A stretch of DNA of 16,355 nt from an uncultured Chloroflexia bacterium (GCA_963768655.1 CAVYIM010000001.1:1-16355); one strand, 5' to 3'; positions 7,734-14,834 are shown, counted from the first letter of the stretch. Notes: generated by a model from the letters alone, not told the origin. Translations and numbers: made by a program.

Positions 7734-8579
7734 ATGGCAGCCAAGAAGCGAAGCGAACGCCGCTCCCCCGGCGGCACGGTTCCGCCCAACGGTAATCGGC
7801 GACCCGATCTGCGGGGACGTCCGGCCGGCGGGCAGTCCAATCGCGCGCTGGCGCGAGCCGGGACGCGGGGATCCGGAGGGGACGGCCGCGGCTCCCTGAT
7901 GCTTTGGAGCGCCGTCTTCGTTGTCATCGCCGGCCTGGTGGTTGGGATCGCCCTTTTCGTAACGCAGTCCGGTAACGGCTCCTCCGGCGCCGTGGTCTCT
8001 CCCAGCGTGGTCACCCCGGCCGGCATCGCGTCTCAGGGTCGGACGCTGGGCGACTCGAACGCGCCCGTGACGGTCGACCTGTACGGCGATTTCCGGTGCT
8101 CCGCGTGCTTCGATTTCGCGACCGGTGGCACGGAGGCGAGCCTGGTGGAGAACTACGTGGCGACCGGCAAGGTCAAGCTGGTCTGGCACGACTACCTTTC
8201 GATCGACATGATCCAGGGCAACTCGGCATCGCGCGACGCCGCCAACGCCGCCTGGTGCGCGGCCGACCAGGGCAAGTTCTGGGTTTTGCACGACTGGCTT
8301 TATGCCAACGACGAGGCGCCGACCGAGGCGGCTTCGGCCTTTACTCCGGCCAGGCTGTCGGCCATCGGGAAGGCGGCCGGACTCGACATGTCGACCTTCC
8401 AGACCTGCCTGAGCGGGAGCAAACACGAGGCCGACATCGCGGCCGAGCAGAAGGCGACGCCCTCGGAGGTGACCGGAACGCCCACCGTCTTCGTGAACGG
8501 TAAGCTGGTGACGGGTGGCACGCCCGGCACCTGGCCCCAGTACGATCAGCTCAAGGCGGCGATCGACGCGCTCAGCTGA
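7734..8579 (+). CDS. Membrane-anchored DsbA-family oxidoreductase 2 (paralog)
   Basis: TM anchor, LGDSNAPVTVDLYGDFRCSAC, AANAAWCAADQGKFW, GTPTVFVNG. AAGGAAAGGG upstream of the ATG. Confidence 0.9.
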   Translation: MAAKKRSERRSPGGTVPPNGNRRPDLRGRPAGGQSNRALARAGTRGSGGDGRGSLMLWSAVFVVIAGLVVGIALFVTQSGNGSSGAVVSPSVVTPAGIASQGRTLGDSNAPVTVDLYGDFRCSACFDFATGGTEASLVENYVATGKVKLVWHDYLSIDMIQGNSASRDAANAAWCAADQGKFWVLHDWLYANDEAPTEAASAFTPARLSAIGKAAGLDMSTFQTCLSGSKHEADIAAEQKATPSEVTGTPTVFVNGKLVTGGTPGTWPQYDQLKAAIDALS

Positions 8580-8610
8580 GCCCTCGCGCGGTCTCCCGGC
8601 CGGCCGCCGA

Positions 8611-9339
8611 CTATTCGCGGGCGACGGTCTCCATGGCGCCGAGCTGCCGTCGCAGTTCCTCCGCCGCCCGCCAGTGGTCGCTCGCGGTTGCCTCCATGCG
8701 CCCGCTCTCGTGCGAGCTCCACTCAGCCAGCCATCGGTTCGCCTCTCGCAGCGTGTGGGCGTCTCTCAGGCGCTCTCGTACGTACTGGATGAAGGCGCAG
8801 TAGAGGGTCCGCGGCGTGGCCTTGGAGACGAGCGCCTCGGCCCCTGGCACGAAGTCGATCGGGACCTTGATCCGGGCGAAGAACGCGCCCACCTCGGCTG
8901 CCAGCGGGTCCGTGGCCTGGCTGTGGCCGCTCCAGCGCAGGATCGGCGCGTGGGAGCTGAAGTCGACCAGGACCGTGGTGTCGTCGGTCATCTGGGCTCG
9001 CATCGTGCCGCCGAAGCTCAGAAACTCGTTCTTGACGGTCAGCCGATCCGTGAGCGTGATACGGCCCCAGGCGAAGTCGGAGACGATCGGGAAGCGCGTC
9101 TCACGGTCGAGGTGAGCCGCGCGGCCGCGCGGTCCTTCGGTGATCCAGTAGTCCATCGACTCGGGGTCGAAATGGTGGAGCGTCGGCTTCGGCCGCAACG
9201 CGGTCAGCAGGTGGCTGGTCTCGTCGCCTCGAGATCGATCGGGTTCGACCAGTTCGAAGCCAAGGTTGGCGAGCATGCGGCCGACTCCTTCGAGCCAGCG
9301 GCTGTCGTCGGGAAGAGCGGTGTGCGGATCGTTCGACAT
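8611..9339 (-). CDS. Hypothetical soluble protein (~242 aa)
   Basis: Globular-looking composition and GC-rich third codon positions. Start is ATG 9339 (AAGGTG upstream) or GTG 9378. No family recognised. Confidence 0.75.
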   Translation of the reverse strand: MSNDPHTALPDDSRWLEGVGRMLANLGFELVEPDRSRGDETSHLLTALRPKPTLHHFDPESMDYWITEGPRGRAAHLDRETRFPIVSDFAWGRITLTDRLTVKNEFLSFGGTMRAQMTDDTTVLVDFSSHAPILRWSGHSQATDPLAAEVGAFFARIKVPIDFVPGAEALVSKATPRTLYCAFIQYVRERLRDAHTLREANRWLAEWSSHESGRMEATASDHWRAAEELRRQLGAMETVARE

Positions 9340-9428
9340 TGCGACTTGCACCTTAGCCTGACTGGCCGTCGCCGTCACGGCCCGATCTTAGCCGCGGCCA
9401 CCGGTGCGGCGTTGCCCGGCGGGCTCGT

Positions 9429-10547
9429 CTATGCGTCGGTGGCGCCGACCGCGTCGCCCGACCTTGCGTTGGTATCTTCGCCCGTGGCCTCGCCCGTCCT
9501 GGGGACGACGATGCCGCCGGCCGAAGCGATCGTAGCGGCCTTGGCGGCCGGGGATGGGCCCGTGGTCTCCCGGGCCATAACCGCTGCCTGGGGCCGTCCC
9601 GACCAGCCGAGATGGGCCAGGGCAGCGACACCGCCGGCCGAGCTGACGAGGAGCGTCAGGACGTGCGTCAGCAGGGCCAGGGCCAGACCGCTGGAGGCCG
9701 GCAGGCCGAAGGCCACGGCGATCGTCTGGCCGGCGTATTCGAAAGTGCCCAGATAGCCCGGGCCCGACGGGATGGCTGTGGCAAGGTTCATGCCGGCGGC
9801 CAGCAGCGCCCCCTCGCCCACGGTCAGCTCGATTCCCAGGGCCTGCCCGACCGCCAGCACGGCCAGGACCGTGCAGCTCCACGCCGCCACGCTCAGGATC
9901 ACCGAAGCGGCGATCGTCCGCGGCAGGGCCGCGACACGCAGGCCGTCCCGCAGTCTCAGGACGATGCCCTTGACCCGCGGCCAGCGGCCCAGGAAGGCGG
10001 CCATCCGGCCGGCCCCGGGGAGACGGTGGGCGGCCAGCGCCACGGCCAGGGCCACCACCAGCAGCCCGGCCAGCGCCACGCCCACGAGGATCGCGCTGAC
10101 GACCACGCCCCGGATGTTGAGGACGAGGATGGCGATGGCCCCGATACCCACCAGCACGATGGTGTCGACGACGCGCTCCACGATCACAGTGCCCAGCGTC
10201 GCGCTGCGGCTGATCCCCTCGCGGTCCCCCAGGTAGTGGCTCCGGACGAGCTCGCCCAGGCGGGCCGGCAGGACGTTGTTGGCGAGGTAGCCGACGAGCA
10301 TGTAGCCGGAGAGGCGGCGCAGCGGCACGGGTCGAATAGGGGCGATCAGCTGCTGCCAGCGGAGCGCCCGGAAGACCAGGTCGGCCGTGACGCCGACCAC
10401 GCCCAGGCAGAGCCAGGAGAGCCGGGCGCCGCCCAGCAGGCTGGCCGTCTTGGCCAGGTCTACGCCGCGCAGGGCCAGGTAGACGCACAAGAGCGAGATG
10501 AGGATGCCGATGCCGCTCCGAGCGATGCCGGTGCTGAGGCGCCTCAC
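9429..10547 (-). CDS. Lysylphosphatidylglycerol-synthase TM / flippase-like (UPF0104) membrane protein
   Basis: RALRWQ, GYLANNVLPARLGELVR, VIVERVVD and IPSGPGYLGTFE motifs. GTG 10547 overlaps the GT2 stop (GTGA). Confidence 0.88.
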   Translation of the reverse strand: MRRLSTGIARSGIGILISLLCVYLALRGVDLAKTASLLGGARLSWLCLGVVGVTADLVFRALRWQQLIAPIRPVPLRRLSGYMLVGYLANNVLPARLGELVRSHYLGDREGISRSATLGTVIVERVVDTIVLVGIGAIAILVLNIRGVVVSAILVGVALAGLLVVALAVALAAHRLPGAGRMAAFLGRWPRVKGIVLRLRDGLRVAALPRTIAASVILSVAAWSCTVLAVLAVGQALGIELTVGEGALLAAGMNLATAIPSGPGYLGTFEYAGQTIAVAFGLPASSGLALALLTHVLTLLVSSAGGVAALAHLGWSGRPQAAVMARETTGPSPAAKAATIASAGGIVVPRTGEATGEDTNARSGDAVGATDA

Positions 10548-11416
10548 CGGGCCGTCGGCTTTCGGCTGGCCAGCTTTCGGGAGGGACGCAACCGCAATCG
10601 ATGAAGCAGGAAGCGCATCACCACCCGCAGGGTGGACAGGCCGTAGACCACGCTGTGTCGGAAGTTGACGGAGCTGGCTTCCTCGAAGTACCGGGTCGGC
10701 ACGGCGATCTCGCCGATGCGCATGCGGCACGCCACGGCCTGGGCGACGAGTTCCTGGTCGAACACGAAGTCGTCGCTGTTGAGCCGGTACGGGATCGTCT
10801 CCAGCAGGTGCCGGCTGTAGGCCCGAAAGCCCGTGTGGTACTCGGAAAGATGGAGGCCGAAGGCCGCGTTCTCGACGCCAGTGAGGAAGCGGTTGCTGAT
10901 GTACTTCCAGCGTGGCATGCCGCCCGCGAGCGGATCACCCAGGAAACGACTGCCCAGCATCAGGTCCTTCGTGCCATCGAGGATCGGCTCCACGAGCTCG
11001 GGAATGCGAGTGGCGTCGTACTGGTAGTCGGGGTGGAGCATGACGACGGCGTCGGCCCCGGCCTCGAGAGCCGCGTCGTAGCAGGTCTTCTGGTTGCCGC
11101 CGTAGCCCAGGTTCTGGCGGTGGATGATCACGTCCAGGCCGAGCTGCTGGGCGACGGCGACGGTATCGTCCCTGGAGACGTCGTCGACGAGGATGATCCT
11201 GTCGATGATCTGATGCGGGATGTCGTGGTAGGTCCGCTCCAGCGTCCTGGCGGCGTTGTAGGCCGGCATGACGACTACGACGTGCCTGGCATTCTTCGTC
11301 TCCGGGCCTGCGACGACGCCAATGAGCCATCCCCCTGTTCCGTGCGCACGAGCGTCAGCAGGTGGCTGGATGGTGTCGTCGATGGCGGACAGTAGTGCGG
11401 GCTCGTCCACCGACAT
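10544..11416 (-). CDS. GT2 glycosyltransferase, polyprenol/dolichol-phosphate mannose synthase (DPM1-like) type, intact copy
   Basis: VVMPAYNAA, ILVDDVSRDDT, NLGYGGNQKT, HPDYQY, GSRF and EYHTGFRAY motifs. Start is ATG 11416 or leaderless GTG 11410. Confidence 0.92.
   Translation of the reverse strand: MSVDEPALLSAIDDTIQPPADARAHGTGGWLIGVVAGPETKNARHVVVVMPAYNAARTLERTYHDIPHQIIDRIILVDDVSRDDTVAVAQQLGLDVIIHRQNLGYGGNQKTCYDAALEAGADAVVMLHPDYQYDATRIPELVEPILDGTKDLMLGSRFLGDPLAGGMPRWKYISNRFLTGVENAAFGLHLSEYHTGFRAYSRHLLETIPYRLNSDDFVFDQELVAQAVACRMRIGEIAVPTRYFEEASSVNFRHSVVYGLSTLRVVMRFLLHRLRLRPSRKLASRKPTAR
10881..11287. repeat. 407-bp direct repeat, copy 1 (GT2 5' half)
   Basis: Identical to 14353-14759 except T10913/C14385 (synonymous Pro codon); offset 3472 bp. 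Confidence 0.95.
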
Positions 11417-11862: not shown

Positions 11863-12771
11863 CTACTTATCGGGCTGCTCGCTCTCGAGAACTTGACGGT
11901 CTAGCAGCGCCACCAAATCGGAGCGTTCGTCCGTAAACTTCCGAGCGAAGAGCATCGGGCCGGGGCCGTACACGTCGTTGGGCGAGAATTCGGAGTGCGT
12001 CCGCAGGAAGGTTATCTGTCTTTCCGAGATATCCGCCGGGCTCCGTCCCCCGGCGCTCCAATCCGTATAGGTGAGATTCCTGGCTACCCGCGACTTGAAA
12101 TCGGAGTTGCCAAGGATGGTCTGGAAGAACGACTCGTCGGGACAACGGGTGTGTTCGTGGAACCTGACCAGTCTGGCCTCCCGGTTGACGAAATCGAGGA
12201 TGTACTCGCACGCTTCCCGTGAGAGCGCCCACCAGGTGGAGCCGGCGTACGGAGCGAGATCGCCAAAGTCGGCCTTGTAGTCGCGTTCGCGCGGTAGAAC
12301 CCGGGCCATCATCAGCAGCCTCTGCGCGGCTCTGATTGGTCTTGGGGTCGTGGGACGCAGCTTGTAGTTGATGAGCCGGGATATCGGCTTGCCGGCTGTC
12401 TCCGAGGGCATCGACACCAGGTTGATGAACTCCGTTGTCGGGTTGTTCTCAAAGAAGCTCTCTATATAGGCGGCGGACCTGAGTGGGTAGTCGGCGCCGC
12501 TGAGCAGCACGAAGCGGTCGAAGCGACGTTCGTCGGCGAGCGCCGCCTGAATGAGCACTAGGATGGCTTCCACTTGGGAGAAGTCGCCCCAGTGGACCGC
12601 GACTCGCTTGTTGGTGAAGTGGACGTCGCCTGTGATGCCCGTGAAATGGGCCAGCCTGGACTTCTTGTCGACGTGGATGAAAAAGCGAGCCGAGCTCGTA
12701 GACAGCGCCGAAACCAATCGTTGGAGATGCTTTGGAGTGTTGTGGGTCAGGATCAGGTAGGCGATCTTCAA
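11863..12771 (-). CDS. GT14 / core-2-I-branching beta-1,6-N-acetylglucosaminyltransferase-like protein
   Basis: IAYLILTH, FFIHVDKK, VHWGDFSQVEA, LLSGADYP, GSTWWALS, PDESFFQT and LFARKF motifs. TTG start with GGAAGGTG upstream; visibly more AT-rich than the core genes. Confidence 0.9.
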   Translation of the reverse strand: MKIAYLILTHNTPKHLQRLVSALSTSSARFFIHVDKKSRLAHFTGITGDVHFTNKRVAVHWGDFSQVEAILVLIQAALADERRFDRFVLLSGADYPLRSAAYIESFFENNPTTEFINLVSMPSETAGKPISRLINYKLRPTTPRPIRAAQRLLMMARVLPRERDYKADFGDLAPYAGSTWWALSREACEYILDFVNREARLVRFHEHTRCPDESFFQTILGNSDFKSRVARNLTYTDWSAGGRSPADISERQITFLRTHSEFSPNDVYGPGPMLFARKFTDERSDLVALLDRQVLESEQPDK

Positions 12772-12879
12772 GGCACACCTTCCGGCGGGAGTCTTGAACC
12801 GCCCCAGGAATCAAGTGGAGACTCCTGGCTGCCCAAAGCCTCCATCAAAGCTCTATGAAAGGGAGCCGGCGATCAAGCT

Positions 12880-13027
12880 GGGCACCTCGCGACTAGCGAT
12901 GGCCAGATCACTTCAGGGCCCGGCGGACTGGTTGACGGATCGAGCAGCGCTCATCTCTCTATCGCCTTCTCTGTGAAGGACAAGGTTGATCGGAGGCTGC
13001 TCCGGCGGCCCAATTCCAGGAGGGTCG
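12880..13027 (-). ncRNA. Putative bridge/seekRNA in the IS 3' non-coding end
   Basis: Stem (12942-12948/12996-13002), internal loop and inner hairpin (12965-12969/12975-12979), at the position expected for IS1111-group guide RNAs. Boundaries are approximate. Confidence 0.55.
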
Positions 13028-14068
13028 TCAAGCGACCAGTTTGATAGCGGGGCCTGCCGGGGCGAAGGGTTCGTTCTTGACCAGCATGTGCCAGATGGCC
13101 TCGGCCAGCTGGCGGGCTAGGTTGACGCGGGCGACCTTGGAGCCGCGCTGCGGTCCGAGGCGGCGCTTGGTTCGTTCGTAGCGATCGTGAAAGCGGGGAT
13201 CTTGGGCAGCGTGGGTGGCCGCCTCGATGAGCGCCCAACGCAGATACCGCGGCCCGTGCTTGGACAACGGTCCGCGGAAGTCATGTTTGCCGGACTGGCG
13301 CACCAAGGGACAAAGACCGGTGTAGCTGGTGAGCTTCTTCGGGCTGGCGAAGCGGCCGATGTCGCCGATCTCAGAGGCGATCGTGTAAGCGGTCACCCAG
13401 CCGATGCCGGGCACGGTCAAGAGAAGCGGGATGTAGCGGTGGTCGGCGCCGAGCCGCCTCAGTTCGCGCTCAGCCAGATCAATCCGTTCGTCAAGGTCGT
13501 CGACCATGGCCAGGGTTGTTGTCAGAGTCGTTGCCCAGGGCTCCGGCAGATCGAGGCCGGCGAGCAGCTCGTGGCCCGACATTCCGAACAGGTCTGACAC
13601 TGGCACGGTGTGGCCGAAGCTCATGAGGGTGGAGTGGATGCGGTTCTTCAGCGCCGTGCGGTGATGGATGAGGTGCTGGCGAAAGCGGGCCCGCTCGCGC
13701 TCTGCGCGAACGCCTGGCGTCGGCAGCCAGATCTCGGGCACCAAGTCTCGGCGGGCGAGCTCAGCCAGGACGCGCGCGTCGATCTTGTCGGTCTTGGCAG
13801 CCAACGGTGCCAGGCCCTTCGCCCTCACGGGGTCGGCGATGGCGACGTCCCAGCCCCAGCGCTCGAGCTGGTCGTGGACGAAGCGTGCGCCCGTCATGGA
13901 CTCGATCGTCGCGCTGACCTCCTCACCGTGGGACAGGATCCGAGCCGCGAGCGTGCGCAGCGCGTCAGCGTCGGGGTGAACTGCCGTGACCTCGACGGTC
14001 TGACCCTCCTCGTCGAGAACATGCACGTCTACCCTCTGGCGCGACAGGTCCAATCCGACGTACAACAT
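13028..14068 (-). CDS. IS110-family transposase (DEDD RuvC-like recombinase)
   Basis: YVGLDLS (D), TIESMTG (E), KTDKIDA (DD), TVPGIG..TA..IASEIGDIGRF, GLCPLVRQSG (catalytic Ser). Intact 346 aa. Confidence 0.96.
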   Translation of the reverse strand: MLYVGLDLSRQRVDVHVLDEEGQTVEVTAVHPDADALRTLAARILSHGEEVSATIESMTGARFVHDQLERWGWDVAIADPVRAKGLAPLAAKTDKIDARVLAELARRDLVPEIWLPTPGVRAERERARFRQHLIHHRTALKNRIHSTLMSFGHTVPVSDLFGMSGHELLAGLDLPEPWATTLTTTLAMVDDLDERIDLAERELRRLGADHRYIPLLLTVPGIGWVTAYTIASEIGDIGRFASPKKLTSYTGLCPLVRQSGKHDFRGPLSKHGPRYLRWALIEAATHAAQDPRFHDRYERTKRRLGPQRGSKVARVNLARQLAEAIWHMLVKNEPFAPAGPAIKLVA

Positions 14069-14276
14069 GTCTGGAGCCCTCCCGGTGCTGGGTGCAAAGA
14101 CAGCCCAACAATGTCACCGGTGGGGCTCCCTTCATGACATTCCAGGGCGGTTCAGTCCTCATCAACTCGCATCTCTCGAATGTTTGCGTAGACGCGACTT
14201 CGAATACGAGCCACTCAGCAGTTGTTCCGGCGGCGCTCGCGTTCGGAACCACGACGACTGCGGTCCCCGTACGAGG

Positions 14277-14834
14277 CTATCTCGGACATCGATCAGCAGA
14301 TGTCAGAGGAGTAGATGCGCATGGAGAGGACGCGTCGCGGCCCATGAGGCTCGTGAGGAAGCGGTTGCTGATGTACTTCCAGCGCGGCATGCCGCCCGCG
14401 AGCGGATCACCCAGGAAACGACTGCCCAGCATCAGGTCCTTCGTGCCATCGAGGATCGGCTCCACGAGCTCGGGAATGCGAGTGGCGTCGTACTGGTAGT
14501 CGGGGTGGAGCATGACGACGGCGTCGGCCCCGGCCTCGAGAGCCGCGTCGTAGCAGGTCTTCTGGTTGCCGCCGTAGCCCAGGTTCTGGCGGTGGATGAT
14601 CACGTCCAGGCCGAGCTGCTGGGCGACGGCGACGGTATCGTCCCTGGAGACGTCGTCGACGAGGATGATCCTGTCGATGATCTGATGCGGGATGTCGTGG
14701 TAGGTCCGCTCCAGCGTCCTGGCGGCGTTGTAGGCCGGCATGACGACTACGACGTGCCTCCGGGCGGGCTCCGTCGACGTCTCGGCAGTTTCAGGGCTCT
14801 GGTCGTTGGCCGGCTGCGGCTTCTTGTCTGGCAC
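14277..14834 (-). pseudogene. 3'-truncated GT2 glycosyltransferase copy
   Basis: Different N-terminus, then about 135 codons identical in protein to the intact GT2, breaking after NRFLT into an unrelated tail. Lacks EYHTGFRAY and the C-terminus. Confidence 0.88.
14353..14759. repeat. 407-bp direct repeat, copy 2
   Basis: Base-by-base match to 10881-11287 with one mismatch. Confidence 0.95.

What the first reader, a model, noticed from the sequence alone, without database searches (positions are those of the whole stretch)
12795..14154. IS1111-group IS110 element inserted into an IS3-type terminal inverted repeat (an IS targeting another IS's ends)
Seen: removing 12852-14142 restores GCCTCCATCAAAGC|CAGGGCGGTTCA, i.e. 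TGAACCGCCCTGGCTTTGATGGAGGC on the minus strand. This is an IS6110/IS3-like IR pairing with the one at 12795. Known: IS1111-group elements are RNA-guided and site-specific; IS4321 and IS5075 target Tn21-family IRs, others target attC or REP sites. Inference: this element may be programmed for IS3-family ends, hitch-hiking on or disabling them. I do not know of that target class being described.
Basis: partly seen in the sequence, partly recalled or inferred. Interest (0 to 1): 0.8.

Follow-up and report, generated by a model that had tools for sequence, protein, structure and literature searches.

The report
RNA-guided IS1111-type element splitting an IS3 end
A small RNA-guided jumping gene of the IS110/IS1111 family sits exactly 12 bases inside the end-repeat of a dead remnant of a second jumping gene of the IS3 family. 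Its own guide RNA appears tuned to that end-repeat, which adds a new example to a kind of targeting that is already known.

Summary
Window 12852-14142 (minus strand) is an intact 1291-bp IS1111-type member of the IS110 family. Its ends are fixed by more than 25 related copies.

Removing it restores, in register and with no extra bases, the left terminal repeat (IRL) of an IS3-family element. The restored sequence matches 34 of 40 bases, ungapped, of the IRL of an intact 1311-bp IS3 element in a same-genus genome. Window 12795-12834 matches that element's right repeat (IRR). The target is therefore a 69-bp IS3 remnant made of an IRR fused to an IRL.

I located the element's two target guides by covariation across relatives. 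They flank a hairpin whose loop holds the transposase stop codon. The window's guides fit the IRL site, with a one-base offset.

A copy from a metagenome, 85% identical in DNA, carries the same guides. It sits at the same position of another IRL-like site in an unrelated context.

So a lineage preference for IS3-type IRLs is plausible, on two independent sites. Relatives with other guides sit in other targets.

The target class is not new:
- IS1383 targets the IS1384 inverted repeats.
- IS4321 and IS5075 target Tn21-family inverted repeats.
- ISEc21 targets IS3-family transposase genes.

Verdict: real, a new member of a known kind, of moderate interest.

The parts
12852..14142 (-). Complete IS1111-type (IS110-family) insertion sequence, 1291 bp
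   Evidence: The ends are defined by blastn against related copies. There is one copy in G000.
13028..14068 (-). Transposase gene, 346 aa, uninterrupted. It contains the motif GLCPLVRQSG.
   Evidence: Pfam PF01548 and PF02371. NCBIfam NF033542 at 244 bits. Translation and motif.
14136..14142 (-). 7-bp left terminal extension (GAATGTC)
   Evidence: The 7-bp left / 3-bp right rule for IS1111 is in a passage of PMC11187229.
14124..14135 (-). Left subterminal inverted repeat (12 nt)
   Evidence: It pairs with 12855-12867 apart from one extra A.
13040..13048 (-). Target guide V0, together with the C at 13039. It lies in the last codons of the transposase gene and is read as pairing with the top strand of the right flank.
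   Evidence: Covariation with right flanks: 14 of 28 unique pairs match 7 of 7 in register, against 5 of 730 cross pairs. Coordinates.
13023..13039 (-). Conserved hairpin (GGUCG / CGACC) between the two target guides. The transposase stop codon (13028-13030) lies in its loop.
   Evidence: Alignment and alifold consensus. Coordinates.
13017..13022 (-). Target guide V1 (CUCCUG, followed by G). It is identical to the top strand of the left flank from -4 to +1.
12949..12965 (-). Conserved stretch containing AUAGAGA, identical to the right end joined to the left end. Read as a donor-matching guide.
   Evidence: k-mer scan: at least 9 of 19 elements match at these columns. It sits in an internal loop of the alifold consensus.
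12855..12867 (-). Right subterminal inverted repeat (13 nt)
12852..12854 (-). 3-bp right terminal extension (AGA)
12871..12876 (-). TTGATC, a possible -35 box. After circle formation it would lie 17 nt from GAGAAT, which spans the end-to-end junction. This is inferred only.
   Evidence: Computed. Relatives have TTGAC at this place. The junction promoter of ISEc11 is described in passages of PMC11187229.
12795..12834 (+). IRR-type terminal repeat of an IS3-family remnant
   Evidence: 36 of 40 bases match the IRR of the G204 IS3 element, with one 2-base gap. Similar ends occur in G160 and G196.
12827..12851 (-). Inner part of the IS3 IRL (IRL positions 13 to about 37). It overlaps the IRR-type part at GGGCAGCC.
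14143..14154 (-). Outer 12 nt (the tip) of the IS3 IRL, cut off from the rest by the insertion

Best explanation
Window 12852-14142 is an intact IS1111-type, RNA-guided IS110-family element of an uncultured Chloroflexota bacterium. Related records are titled 'Ca. Limnocylindrales'.

It integrated without a target duplication, 12 bp inside the left terminal repeat (IRL) of an IS3-family element. That IS3 element is now only a 69-bp remnant, an IRR fused to an IRL.

Site choice is read as follows. A seekRNA/bridge RNA is transcribed from the end of the transposase gene and the 176-nt right end. Two short guides flank a conserved hairpin:
- V1 (CCUG followed by G) matches the left flank from -4 to +1.
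- V0 (AUCAAAC) pairs with the right flank, here with a one-base offset.

The sub-lineage to which this copy belongs keeps these guides and lands at this position of IS3-type IRLs.

What is shown:
- The anatomy, the boundaries, the identity of the target, and guide-flank covariation across the family.
- A second independent site with the same guides.

What is inferred:
- That the RNA is made and used, that a circle intermediate with a junction promoter forms, and that the insertion disables the IS3 end.
For: (1) IS1111-type features are met:
- a 346-aa DEDD transposase with the motif GL-P----SG;
- 12/13-nt subterminal repeats with 7-bp left and 3-bp right extensions;
- 74 nt of non-coding sequence upstream and 176 nt downstream.
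The criteria are taken from PMC11187229, sections 4 and 6.

(2) The boundaries are shared with related copies.

(3) The restored site matches the IRL of a real IS3 element (L080) at 34 of 40 bases, ungapped.

(4) Guides:
- In a MAFFT alignment of 19 right ends, the variable blocks next to the conserved hairpin track the flanks.
- V0 matches the right flank 7 of 7 in 14 of 28 unique pairs, against 5 of 730 cross pairs. Mean matches are 5.64 (own pairs) against 3.23 (cross pairs), with 18 distinct V0 7-mers.
- The order, with the top-strand match 5' of the bottom-strand match, agrees with the IS1111 seekRNA description.

(5) Second site:
- L081 is 90% identical in protein and 85.4% in DNA over 1321 nt. 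It has identical V0 and V1.
- Its flanks restore a sequence that matches the G204 IRL at 19 of the first 20 bases.
- It lies between an MFS transporter gene and an Nramp gene, not the window's glycosyltransferase genes.
- The 12 tip bases are identical in the two sites, although the guides cover only 4 of them.

(6) Relatives with other guides sit in other flanks.
Against: - There are only two independent sites. L005/G219 is the window's own locus with a local tandem duplication. L099 is the L081 locus in an indel-rich contig.
- Both targets are remnants. The one intact IS3 copy seen (G204) is unoccupied. G000 has no matching IS3 transposase (tblastn found none).
- In register, V0 matches the window's right flank at only 3 of 7 bases. 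A one-base offset is needed, giving 6 of 7 in the window and 7 of 7 in L081.
- Three unoccupied CCTGGNTTTGAT sites exist in G000.
- The same guide block was not found in 400 other family genomes (1 of 401). The same left junction was not found in 49 other genus genomes (2 of 51: G000 and G219).
- The right end does not fold better than shuffled sequence (z = -0.54), and no Rfam family matches.
- The unique pairs include related elements and possibly orthologous insertions, so the counts overstate independence.
Confidence: 0.7

Rival explanations
1. Near-cognate, one-off insertions. The guides of this sub-lineage are really tuned to another sequence of the kind its relatives use: short palindromes of the form CACGATG | G NNN CATCGTG. 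On this reading the IS3-type IRL merely resembles that sequence closely enough to be hit now and then.
For: - A one-base offset is needed for V0 pairing.
- Many relatives' targets are palindromes whose right arm (GATGGTG or CATCGTG) resembles the window's TTTGATGGAG.
- Only two sites are known, both remnants.
- Unoccupied guide-core sites exist in G000.
Against: - Two copies that differ by 15% in DNA keep identical guides and sit at the same position of sequences that share all 12 tip bases and 19 of the first 20 bases.
- No copy with these guides was found anywhere else.
Confidence: 0.17
2. Hitch-hiking composite. The whole of 12795-14154, meaning the IS3 repeats plus the IS110-family element, moves as a non-autonomous IS3 derivative when an IS3 transposase is supplied in trans.
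For: - The unit is bracketed by inverted IS3-type tips.
- GTC occurs at 12791-12793 and at 14155-14157. It would be a 3-bp duplication only if the left tip began one base earlier.
- One short, low-depth contig of run X1 continues differently from the window at 12831. That is a hint of another context for the inner IRL.
Against: - The unit is seen at one locus only.
- There is no IS3 transposase in G000.
- The insertion separates the IRL tip from its inner part by 1.3 kb, which should harm rather than help recognition by the IS3 transposase. This rests on established knowledge of IS3 ends and was not tested here.
- L081 has no partner IRR.
Confidence: 0.08
3. The TGAACCGCCC stretches are the IS110-family element's own terminal repeats, so the true element is 12795-14154.
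For: - They form an inverted pair around the transposase gene.
- L081 shares 18 nt beyond the left end and 8 nt beyond the right end with the window.
Against: - More than 25 relatives have conserved ends exactly at 12852 and 14142 and lack these stretches.
- The stretches are the two ends of a 1311-bp IS3-family element with OrfA and OrfB in G204, and the join is in register with its IRL.
- A conserved RNA block matches the 12852 end joined to the 14142 end.
- L081 lacks the 12795-12851 part.
Confidence: 0.02

Closest known systems
IS1383 of Pseudomonas putida H, which integrates into the inverted repeats of IS1384 (Muller, Lauf and Hermann 2001; title seen in reference lists only)
   Same: An IS110/IS1111-family element whose specific target is the terminal repeat of another insertion sequence.
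   Different: - Different host phylum and a different target IS.
- I could not read the paper, so I do not know the family of IS1384, the position within its repeat, or whether guides were mapped.
IS4321 and IS5075 (IS1111 family), which target the terminal repeats of Tn21-family transposons (Partridge and Hall 2003; title only. The target logo is mentioned in PMC11187229 section 13)
   Same: - IS1111-type anatomy: subterminal repeats, asymmetric extensions, no duplication.
- Insertion at one fixed position and in one orientation inside a transposon end.
   Different: - The target here is an IS3-family IRL rather than a Tn3-family 38-bp repeat.
- Only two sites are known here, against nearly 900 insertions reported for IS4321.
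ISEc21 (IS110 type), whose target lies in IS3-family transposase genes (PMC11187229, passage seen)
   Same: An RNA-guided IS110-family element that lives inside IS3-family elements.
   Different: - ISEc21 carries its non-coding RNA region upstream of the transposase gene.
[quoted passage not shown]
ISEc11, ISPa11 and ISKpn4 seekRNAs (PMC11187229) and IS621-type bridge RNAs (PMC11208160)
   Same: - A downstream non-coding region.
- Two short target matches to opposite strands, with the top-strand match lying 5'.
- A donor-matching block.
- A possible promoter formed at the circle junction.
   Different: - Here the 5' guide lies inside the last transposase codons, and the stop codon sits in the loop of the hairpin between the guides.
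- The two matches abut rather than overlap at this target.
- No RNA data exist for this element.

Membership tests
IS1111 group of the IS110 family | DEDD (RuvC-like) transposase with the PF02371 C-terminal domain, 330-350 aa | tested here: met
   PF01548 and PF02371. NF033542 at 244 bits against a cut-off of 140. Length 346 aa. The size range is from PMC11187229 section 6.
IS1111 group of the IS110 family | Subterminal inverted repeats of about 11-13 bp, with terminal extensions of 7 bp on the left and 3 bp on the right | tested here: met
   A 12-nt and a 13-nt repeat that differ by one extra A. The extensions are GAATGTC and AGA. The rule is quoted from a passage seen.
IS1111 group of the IS110 family | The longer non-coding region lies downstream of the transposase gene | tested here: met
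   74 nt upstream against 176 nt downstream.
IS1111 group of the IS110 family | C-terminal motif GL-P----S(t)G | tested here: met
   GLCPLVRQSG at residue 251.
IS1111 group of the IS110 family | Insertion without added or duplicated bases | tested here: met
   The restored site aligns ungapped with the uninterrupted IRL of the G204 IS3 element.
IS1111 group of the IS110 family | A seekRNA with two short matches to opposite target strands, the top-strand match lying 5' | tested here: met
   Covariation of V0 and V1 with the flanks. No RNA was observed: no RNA run was listed.
IS1111 group of the IS110 family | The transposase branches within the IS1111 clade of ISfinder transposases | not tested
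IS1111 group of the IS110 family | A circular intermediate with abutted ends and a junction promoter | not testable with these tools
   The only indication is an inferred TTGATC-17 nt-GAGAAT across the computed junction. The contigs laid show no joint of that kind at very low depth.
IS3 family (the target element) | Two overlapping ORFs: OrfA with a helix-turn-helix and OrfB with a DDE integrase core. Length 1.2-1.5 kb. Terminal repeats of the form TG...CA. | tested here: met
   For the reference element in G204:
- length 1311 bp;
- OrfA has HTH_Tnp_1; OrfB has rve, rve_3 and HTH_21;
- NF033516 at 263.8 bits against a cut-off of 160;
- the two repeats are 36 of 40 identical to each other.
The window holds only the two repeats (69 bp), and G000 has no such ORFs.

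The most novel reading that the evidence does not exclude
A lineage of RNA-guided IS1111-type elements in Limnocylindria-like Chloroflexota is a dedicated parasite or antagonist of IS3-family elements.
- Its guides are held fixed on the IS3 IRL, even across copies that differ by 15% in DNA.
- Each insertion cuts the 12-bp cleaved tip away from the part of the repeat that the transposase binds. This would immobilise the IS3 copy while giving the invader a safe landing site.
- One of the two guides is written into the last codons of the invader's own transposase gene, so retargeting also changes the protein's tail.
Probability: 0.3. Interest if true: 0.6.

Novelty: new member of a known kind. 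Interest (0 to 1): 0.42.

Why it matters
- It adds an IS3-family terminal repeat to the list of mobile-element ends that IS1111-type elements select. The known cases are the Tn21-family repeats, attC sites, REP sequences and the IS1384 repeats.
- It comes from an uncultured soil and peat Chloroflexota lineage. Here the guide positions can be read directly from natural covariation, across 18 different guide 7-mers.
- It offers a compact natural series of retargeted guides for the seekRNA/bridge-RNA field. In this series the 5' guide overlaps the coding sequence.
- It gives a testable case of one transposon disabling another.
- It does not change the picture of how these elements work.

Tried and rejected
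- **Rfam.** A scan of 12600-14400 on both strands at E up to 1 gave no match.
- **Single-sequence fold of the right end.** It was no better than shuffled sequence (z = -0.54), so I used comparative analysis instead.
- **Intact IS3 partners in G000.** The candidates at C4:611889 and C5:102415 have no partner repeat.
- **65-nt search with the left part of the remnant in 200 family genomes**. Most hits were chance-level. The useful ones were G160 (L048) and G196 (L053). L055 turned out to be unrelated.
- **Empty orthologous sites.**
  - The nearest Branch-type gene, in G160, is only 73% identical and has unrelated upstream sequence.
  - The Nramp neighbour of L081 has an orthologue in G000 on C5, but homology stops at the gene.
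- **REP-like abundance of the palindromic targets in G000.** There are 11 sites, against 0-13 for five control patterns, so they are not enriched.
- **Sequencing runs.**
  - No RNA holder was listed.
  - The three DNA runs are Logan contigs at depth of about 3 and come from one study. They show no empty-site or circle joint and leave parts of the stretch without cover.
  - This says nothing either way.
- **Donor guide.** The variable block V2, after GCAGCCUCC, did not match either strand of the left end in my reading of the alignment. Its role is open.
- **Tools and papers not available.**
  - PMC219399 is not held.
  - Supplements were not consulted.

Full report
**What is there**

The window is the whole of contig C1 of a 3.37-Mb, 9-contig genome with about 68% G+C. 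Related records are titled as uncultured Chloroflexia or 'Candidatus Limnocylindrales' MAGs.

Between 12795 and 14154 lie an inverted pair of TGAACCGCCC stretches and, on the minus strand, a 346-aa ORF (14068..13028). The ORF carries:
- Pfam DEDD_Tnp_IS110 and Transposase_20;
- NCBIfam NF033542, 'IS110 family RNA-guided transposase', at 244 bits against a cut-off of 140;
- the motif GLCPLVRQSG.

The flanking genes are glycosyltransferases: a Branch-type gene at 11863-12771 and a GT2 fragment at 14277-14834.

**Boundaries of the IS110-family element**

G000 holds one full copy. It also holds a 73% relative on C8 and fragments on C5.

In a sample of 200 other family genomes, 66 gave some match. 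Near-full-length copies at 73-79% identity lie at 16 places in 11 genomes. The genome collection gave 12 more loci.

blastn of the element, oriented with the transposase gene forward, starts at element base 1 in most rows. It reaches base 1291 in L005, L006, L007, L020 and L030.
- All 33 left-end rows start with GA(A/C)T..., most of them with GAATG(T/C)CATGAA, straight after unrelated flanks.
- Right ends stop at ...TTCATAGA in 26 of 30 rows, and the next base is nearly always G; four divergent copies (L025, L035, L039, L045) end otherwise.

So 12852 and 14142 are the ends. The anatomy is that of the IS1111 type as defined in PMC11187229 (sections 4 and 6):
- a 7-bp left extension, then a 12-nt subterminal repeat;
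- a 13-nt subterminal repeat, then a 3-bp right extension;
- 74 nt of non-coding sequence upstream and 176 nt downstream.

**What it is inserted into**

A search with the window's left flank in 30 other genus genomes hit G204:C74 over the TGAACCGCCC... part. That locus (L080 228-1538) is a 1311-bp element with:
- OrfA (HTH_Tnp_1) and OrfB (rve, rve_3, HTH_21);
- NCBIfam 'IS3 family transposase' at 263.8 bits against a cut-off of 160;
- two terminal repeats that are 36 of 40 identical to each other.

The window's two flanks, joined in a script, align ungapped with this element's IRL at 34 of 40 bases. The join falls between IRL positions 12 and 13. Window 12795-12836 aligns with the IRR at 36 of 40 bases with one 2-base gap.

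The target is therefore a 69-bp IS3 remnant. An IRR-type repeat runs straight into an IRL-type repeat at a shared GGGCAGCC. The IS110-family element lies 12 bp inside the IRL tip, and its transposase gene reads inward.

Further IS3-type ends of this kind exist in G160 and G196. In G160, a weak rve_3 C-terminal fragment, below Pfam's cut-off, lies nearby.

G000 itself has no matching IS3 transposase (tblastn found none). It has only 10 occurrences of TGAACCGCCC.

**Rejecting the reading that these are the element's own ends**

- Relatives lack the stretches.
- A conserved RNA block contains AUAGAGA, which is the 12852 end joined to the 14142 end.
- The stretches are the two ends of a real IS3 element.

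**How the site is chosen**

No Rfam family matches, and a single-sequence fold is unremarkable. The family alignment is informative, however.

In a MAFFT alignment of 19 right ends, a fully conserved hairpin (GGUCG / CGACC) has the transposase stop codon in its loop. It is flanked by two variable blocks.
- The 5' block, V0, lies in the last codons of the gene. It equals the bottom strand of the right flank.
- The 3' block, V1, is followed by GAAU. It equals the top strand of the left flank.

With the metagenome loci added, 36 rows reduce to 28 unique guide-flank pairs with 18 different V0 7-mers. Results:
- 14 of 28 pairs match 7 of 7 in register, against 5 of 730 pairs of a guide with another element's flank.
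- The mean number of matches is 5.64 for own pairs against 3.23 for cross pairs.

Some of these pairs are related or possibly orthologous insertions, so the figures overstate independence. Several mismatching cases become matches after a shift of 1, 2 or 4 bases (L081, L012, L013, L094).

The order of the two matches agrees with the seekRNA description for IS1111 members (section 9). An alifold consensus puts the donor-like block in an internal loop of a second stem.

**The window's own guides**

V1 is CUCCUG followed by G. It matches the left flank from -4 to +1.

V0 plus the next C is AUCAAAC. It predicts a right flank starting G TTTGAT. The observed flank has one extra base at +2.
- In register, the match is 3 of 7.
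- With a one-base shift, the match is 6 of 7.

The two matches thus abut instead of overlapping by one base.

**A second, independent site**

Of the 34 metagenome loci, 16 showed the guide motif. Two of them, L081 and L099, carry exactly the window's V0 and V1. L099 is the L081 locus in an indel-rich contig.

L081 is 90% identical in protein and 85.4% identical in DNA over 1321 nt. Only 18 nt on the left and 8 nt on the right continue beyond the element. It lies between an MFS transporter gene and an Nramp gene.

Its left flank ends with the same 12 tip bases. Its restored site matches the G204 IRL at 19 of the first 20 bases and then diverges. It has no IRR partner and no IS3 ORF nearby. It shows the same one-base offset.

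The guides cover only 4 of the 12 shared tip bases, so the shared tip is best explained by common IS3 origin of the two targets.

No further same-guide copy was found:
- 1 of 401 family genomes has the guide block, and that is G000.
- 2 of 51 genus genomes have the left junction: G000 and G219.

G219/L005 is the window's locus, 98.6% identical over 5.4 kb, with a 3.99-kb tandem duplication.

**Points against a strong claim**

- There are two sites, and both are remnants.
- The intact G204 IS3 copy is unoccupied.
- Three CCTGGNTTTGAT sites in G000 are unoccupied.
- Many relatives target short palindromes whose right arm resembles the IRL stretch. A near-cognate hit therefore cannot be excluded.

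**Known precedents**

- The reference lists in PMC11208160 give Muller et al. 2001. Its title states that the inverted repeats of IS1384 are the specific integration target of IS1383 (title only).
- Partridge and Hall 2003 covers IS4321/IS5075 and the Tn21-family repeats (title only; the logo is mentioned).
- PMC11187229 states that ISEc21 targets a conserved stretch within IS3-family transposase genes (passage).
- Three full-text searches found no paper describing an IS1111-type element that targets an IS3-family terminal repeat.
- Supplements were not seen. They hold target logos for more than 300 IS and may bear on this.

**Verdict**

It is a new member of a known kind, not a new target class.

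Still inferred or untested:
- disabling of the IS3 element;
- hitch-hiking of the composite unit;
- the circle junction promoter (TTGATC, 17 nt, GAGAAT).

The sequencing runs available were too thin to show empty sites or circles.

Noticed in passing
window 10874-11287 and 14346-14759: A direct repeat of about 300-410 nt at 99-100% identity, lying within GT2 glycosyltransferase sequence, brackets the Branch-type gene, the IS3 remnant and the IS110-family element. In the near-identical genome G219 (L005) the segment between the repeats is tandemly duplicated (3989-bp spacing). This looks like repeat-mediated duplication or an assembly effect at a contig end.
   Followed up: partly
window 13028-13048: The 5' target guide lies in the last four or five codons of the transposase gene, and the stop codon sits in the loop of the hairpin between the two guides. 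Relatives with other guides therefore have other C-terminal residues, for example A-I-K-L-V-A here.
   Followed up: partly
L006, L010, L012-L014, L018-L023, L083, L091, L098 (flanks): Many relatives sit in short palindromes of the form CACGATG | G NNN CATCGTG, cut right after the left arm. V1 explains only about 3 bases of the conserved left arm, so what reads the rest is unexplained. The palindromes are not enriched in G000: 11 sites against 0-13 for controls. However, 6 of the 11 lie in the first 118 kb of C7.
   Followed up: partly
L012, L013/L102, L094 (right junctions): The right flank is out of register with the guide by 2 or 4 bases, which read GA or GAGA. This looks as if the AGA end had been extended by slippage.
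   Followed up: no
G000 C8:about 8405-9656 (L002) and C5:505804-506212 (L003/L004): There is a second, 73%-identical IS110-family element with different ends (subterminal repeat CAGAGGG...) on C8, and a degraded fragment of another on C5.
   Followed up: partly
window 12831 (run X1): One 197-nt, depth-3 contig of run X1 matches 12831-12986 and then continues with 41 unrelated bases. It diverges exactly where the inner IRL meets the IRR-type part in the window. This is a hint that the same interrupted IRL also exists attached to a different interior.
   Followed up: no
L048 (G160:C70) 1501-2551: An IS3-type end with a weak rve_3 fragment abuts two broken pieces of a formate-tetrahydrofolate ligase gene. 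The gene may have been disrupted by the IS3 element.
   Followed up: no
L007, L008, L009, L086, L090, L092 (flanks): The relatives with CTATAC | GGGTGAAGG flanks share a longer conserved context (GGAGTC...CTATAC on the left...CAGCGAC...CGACGAG on the right) across different MAGs. This is either one old insertion inherited vertically or a conserved repeated target.
   Followed up: no
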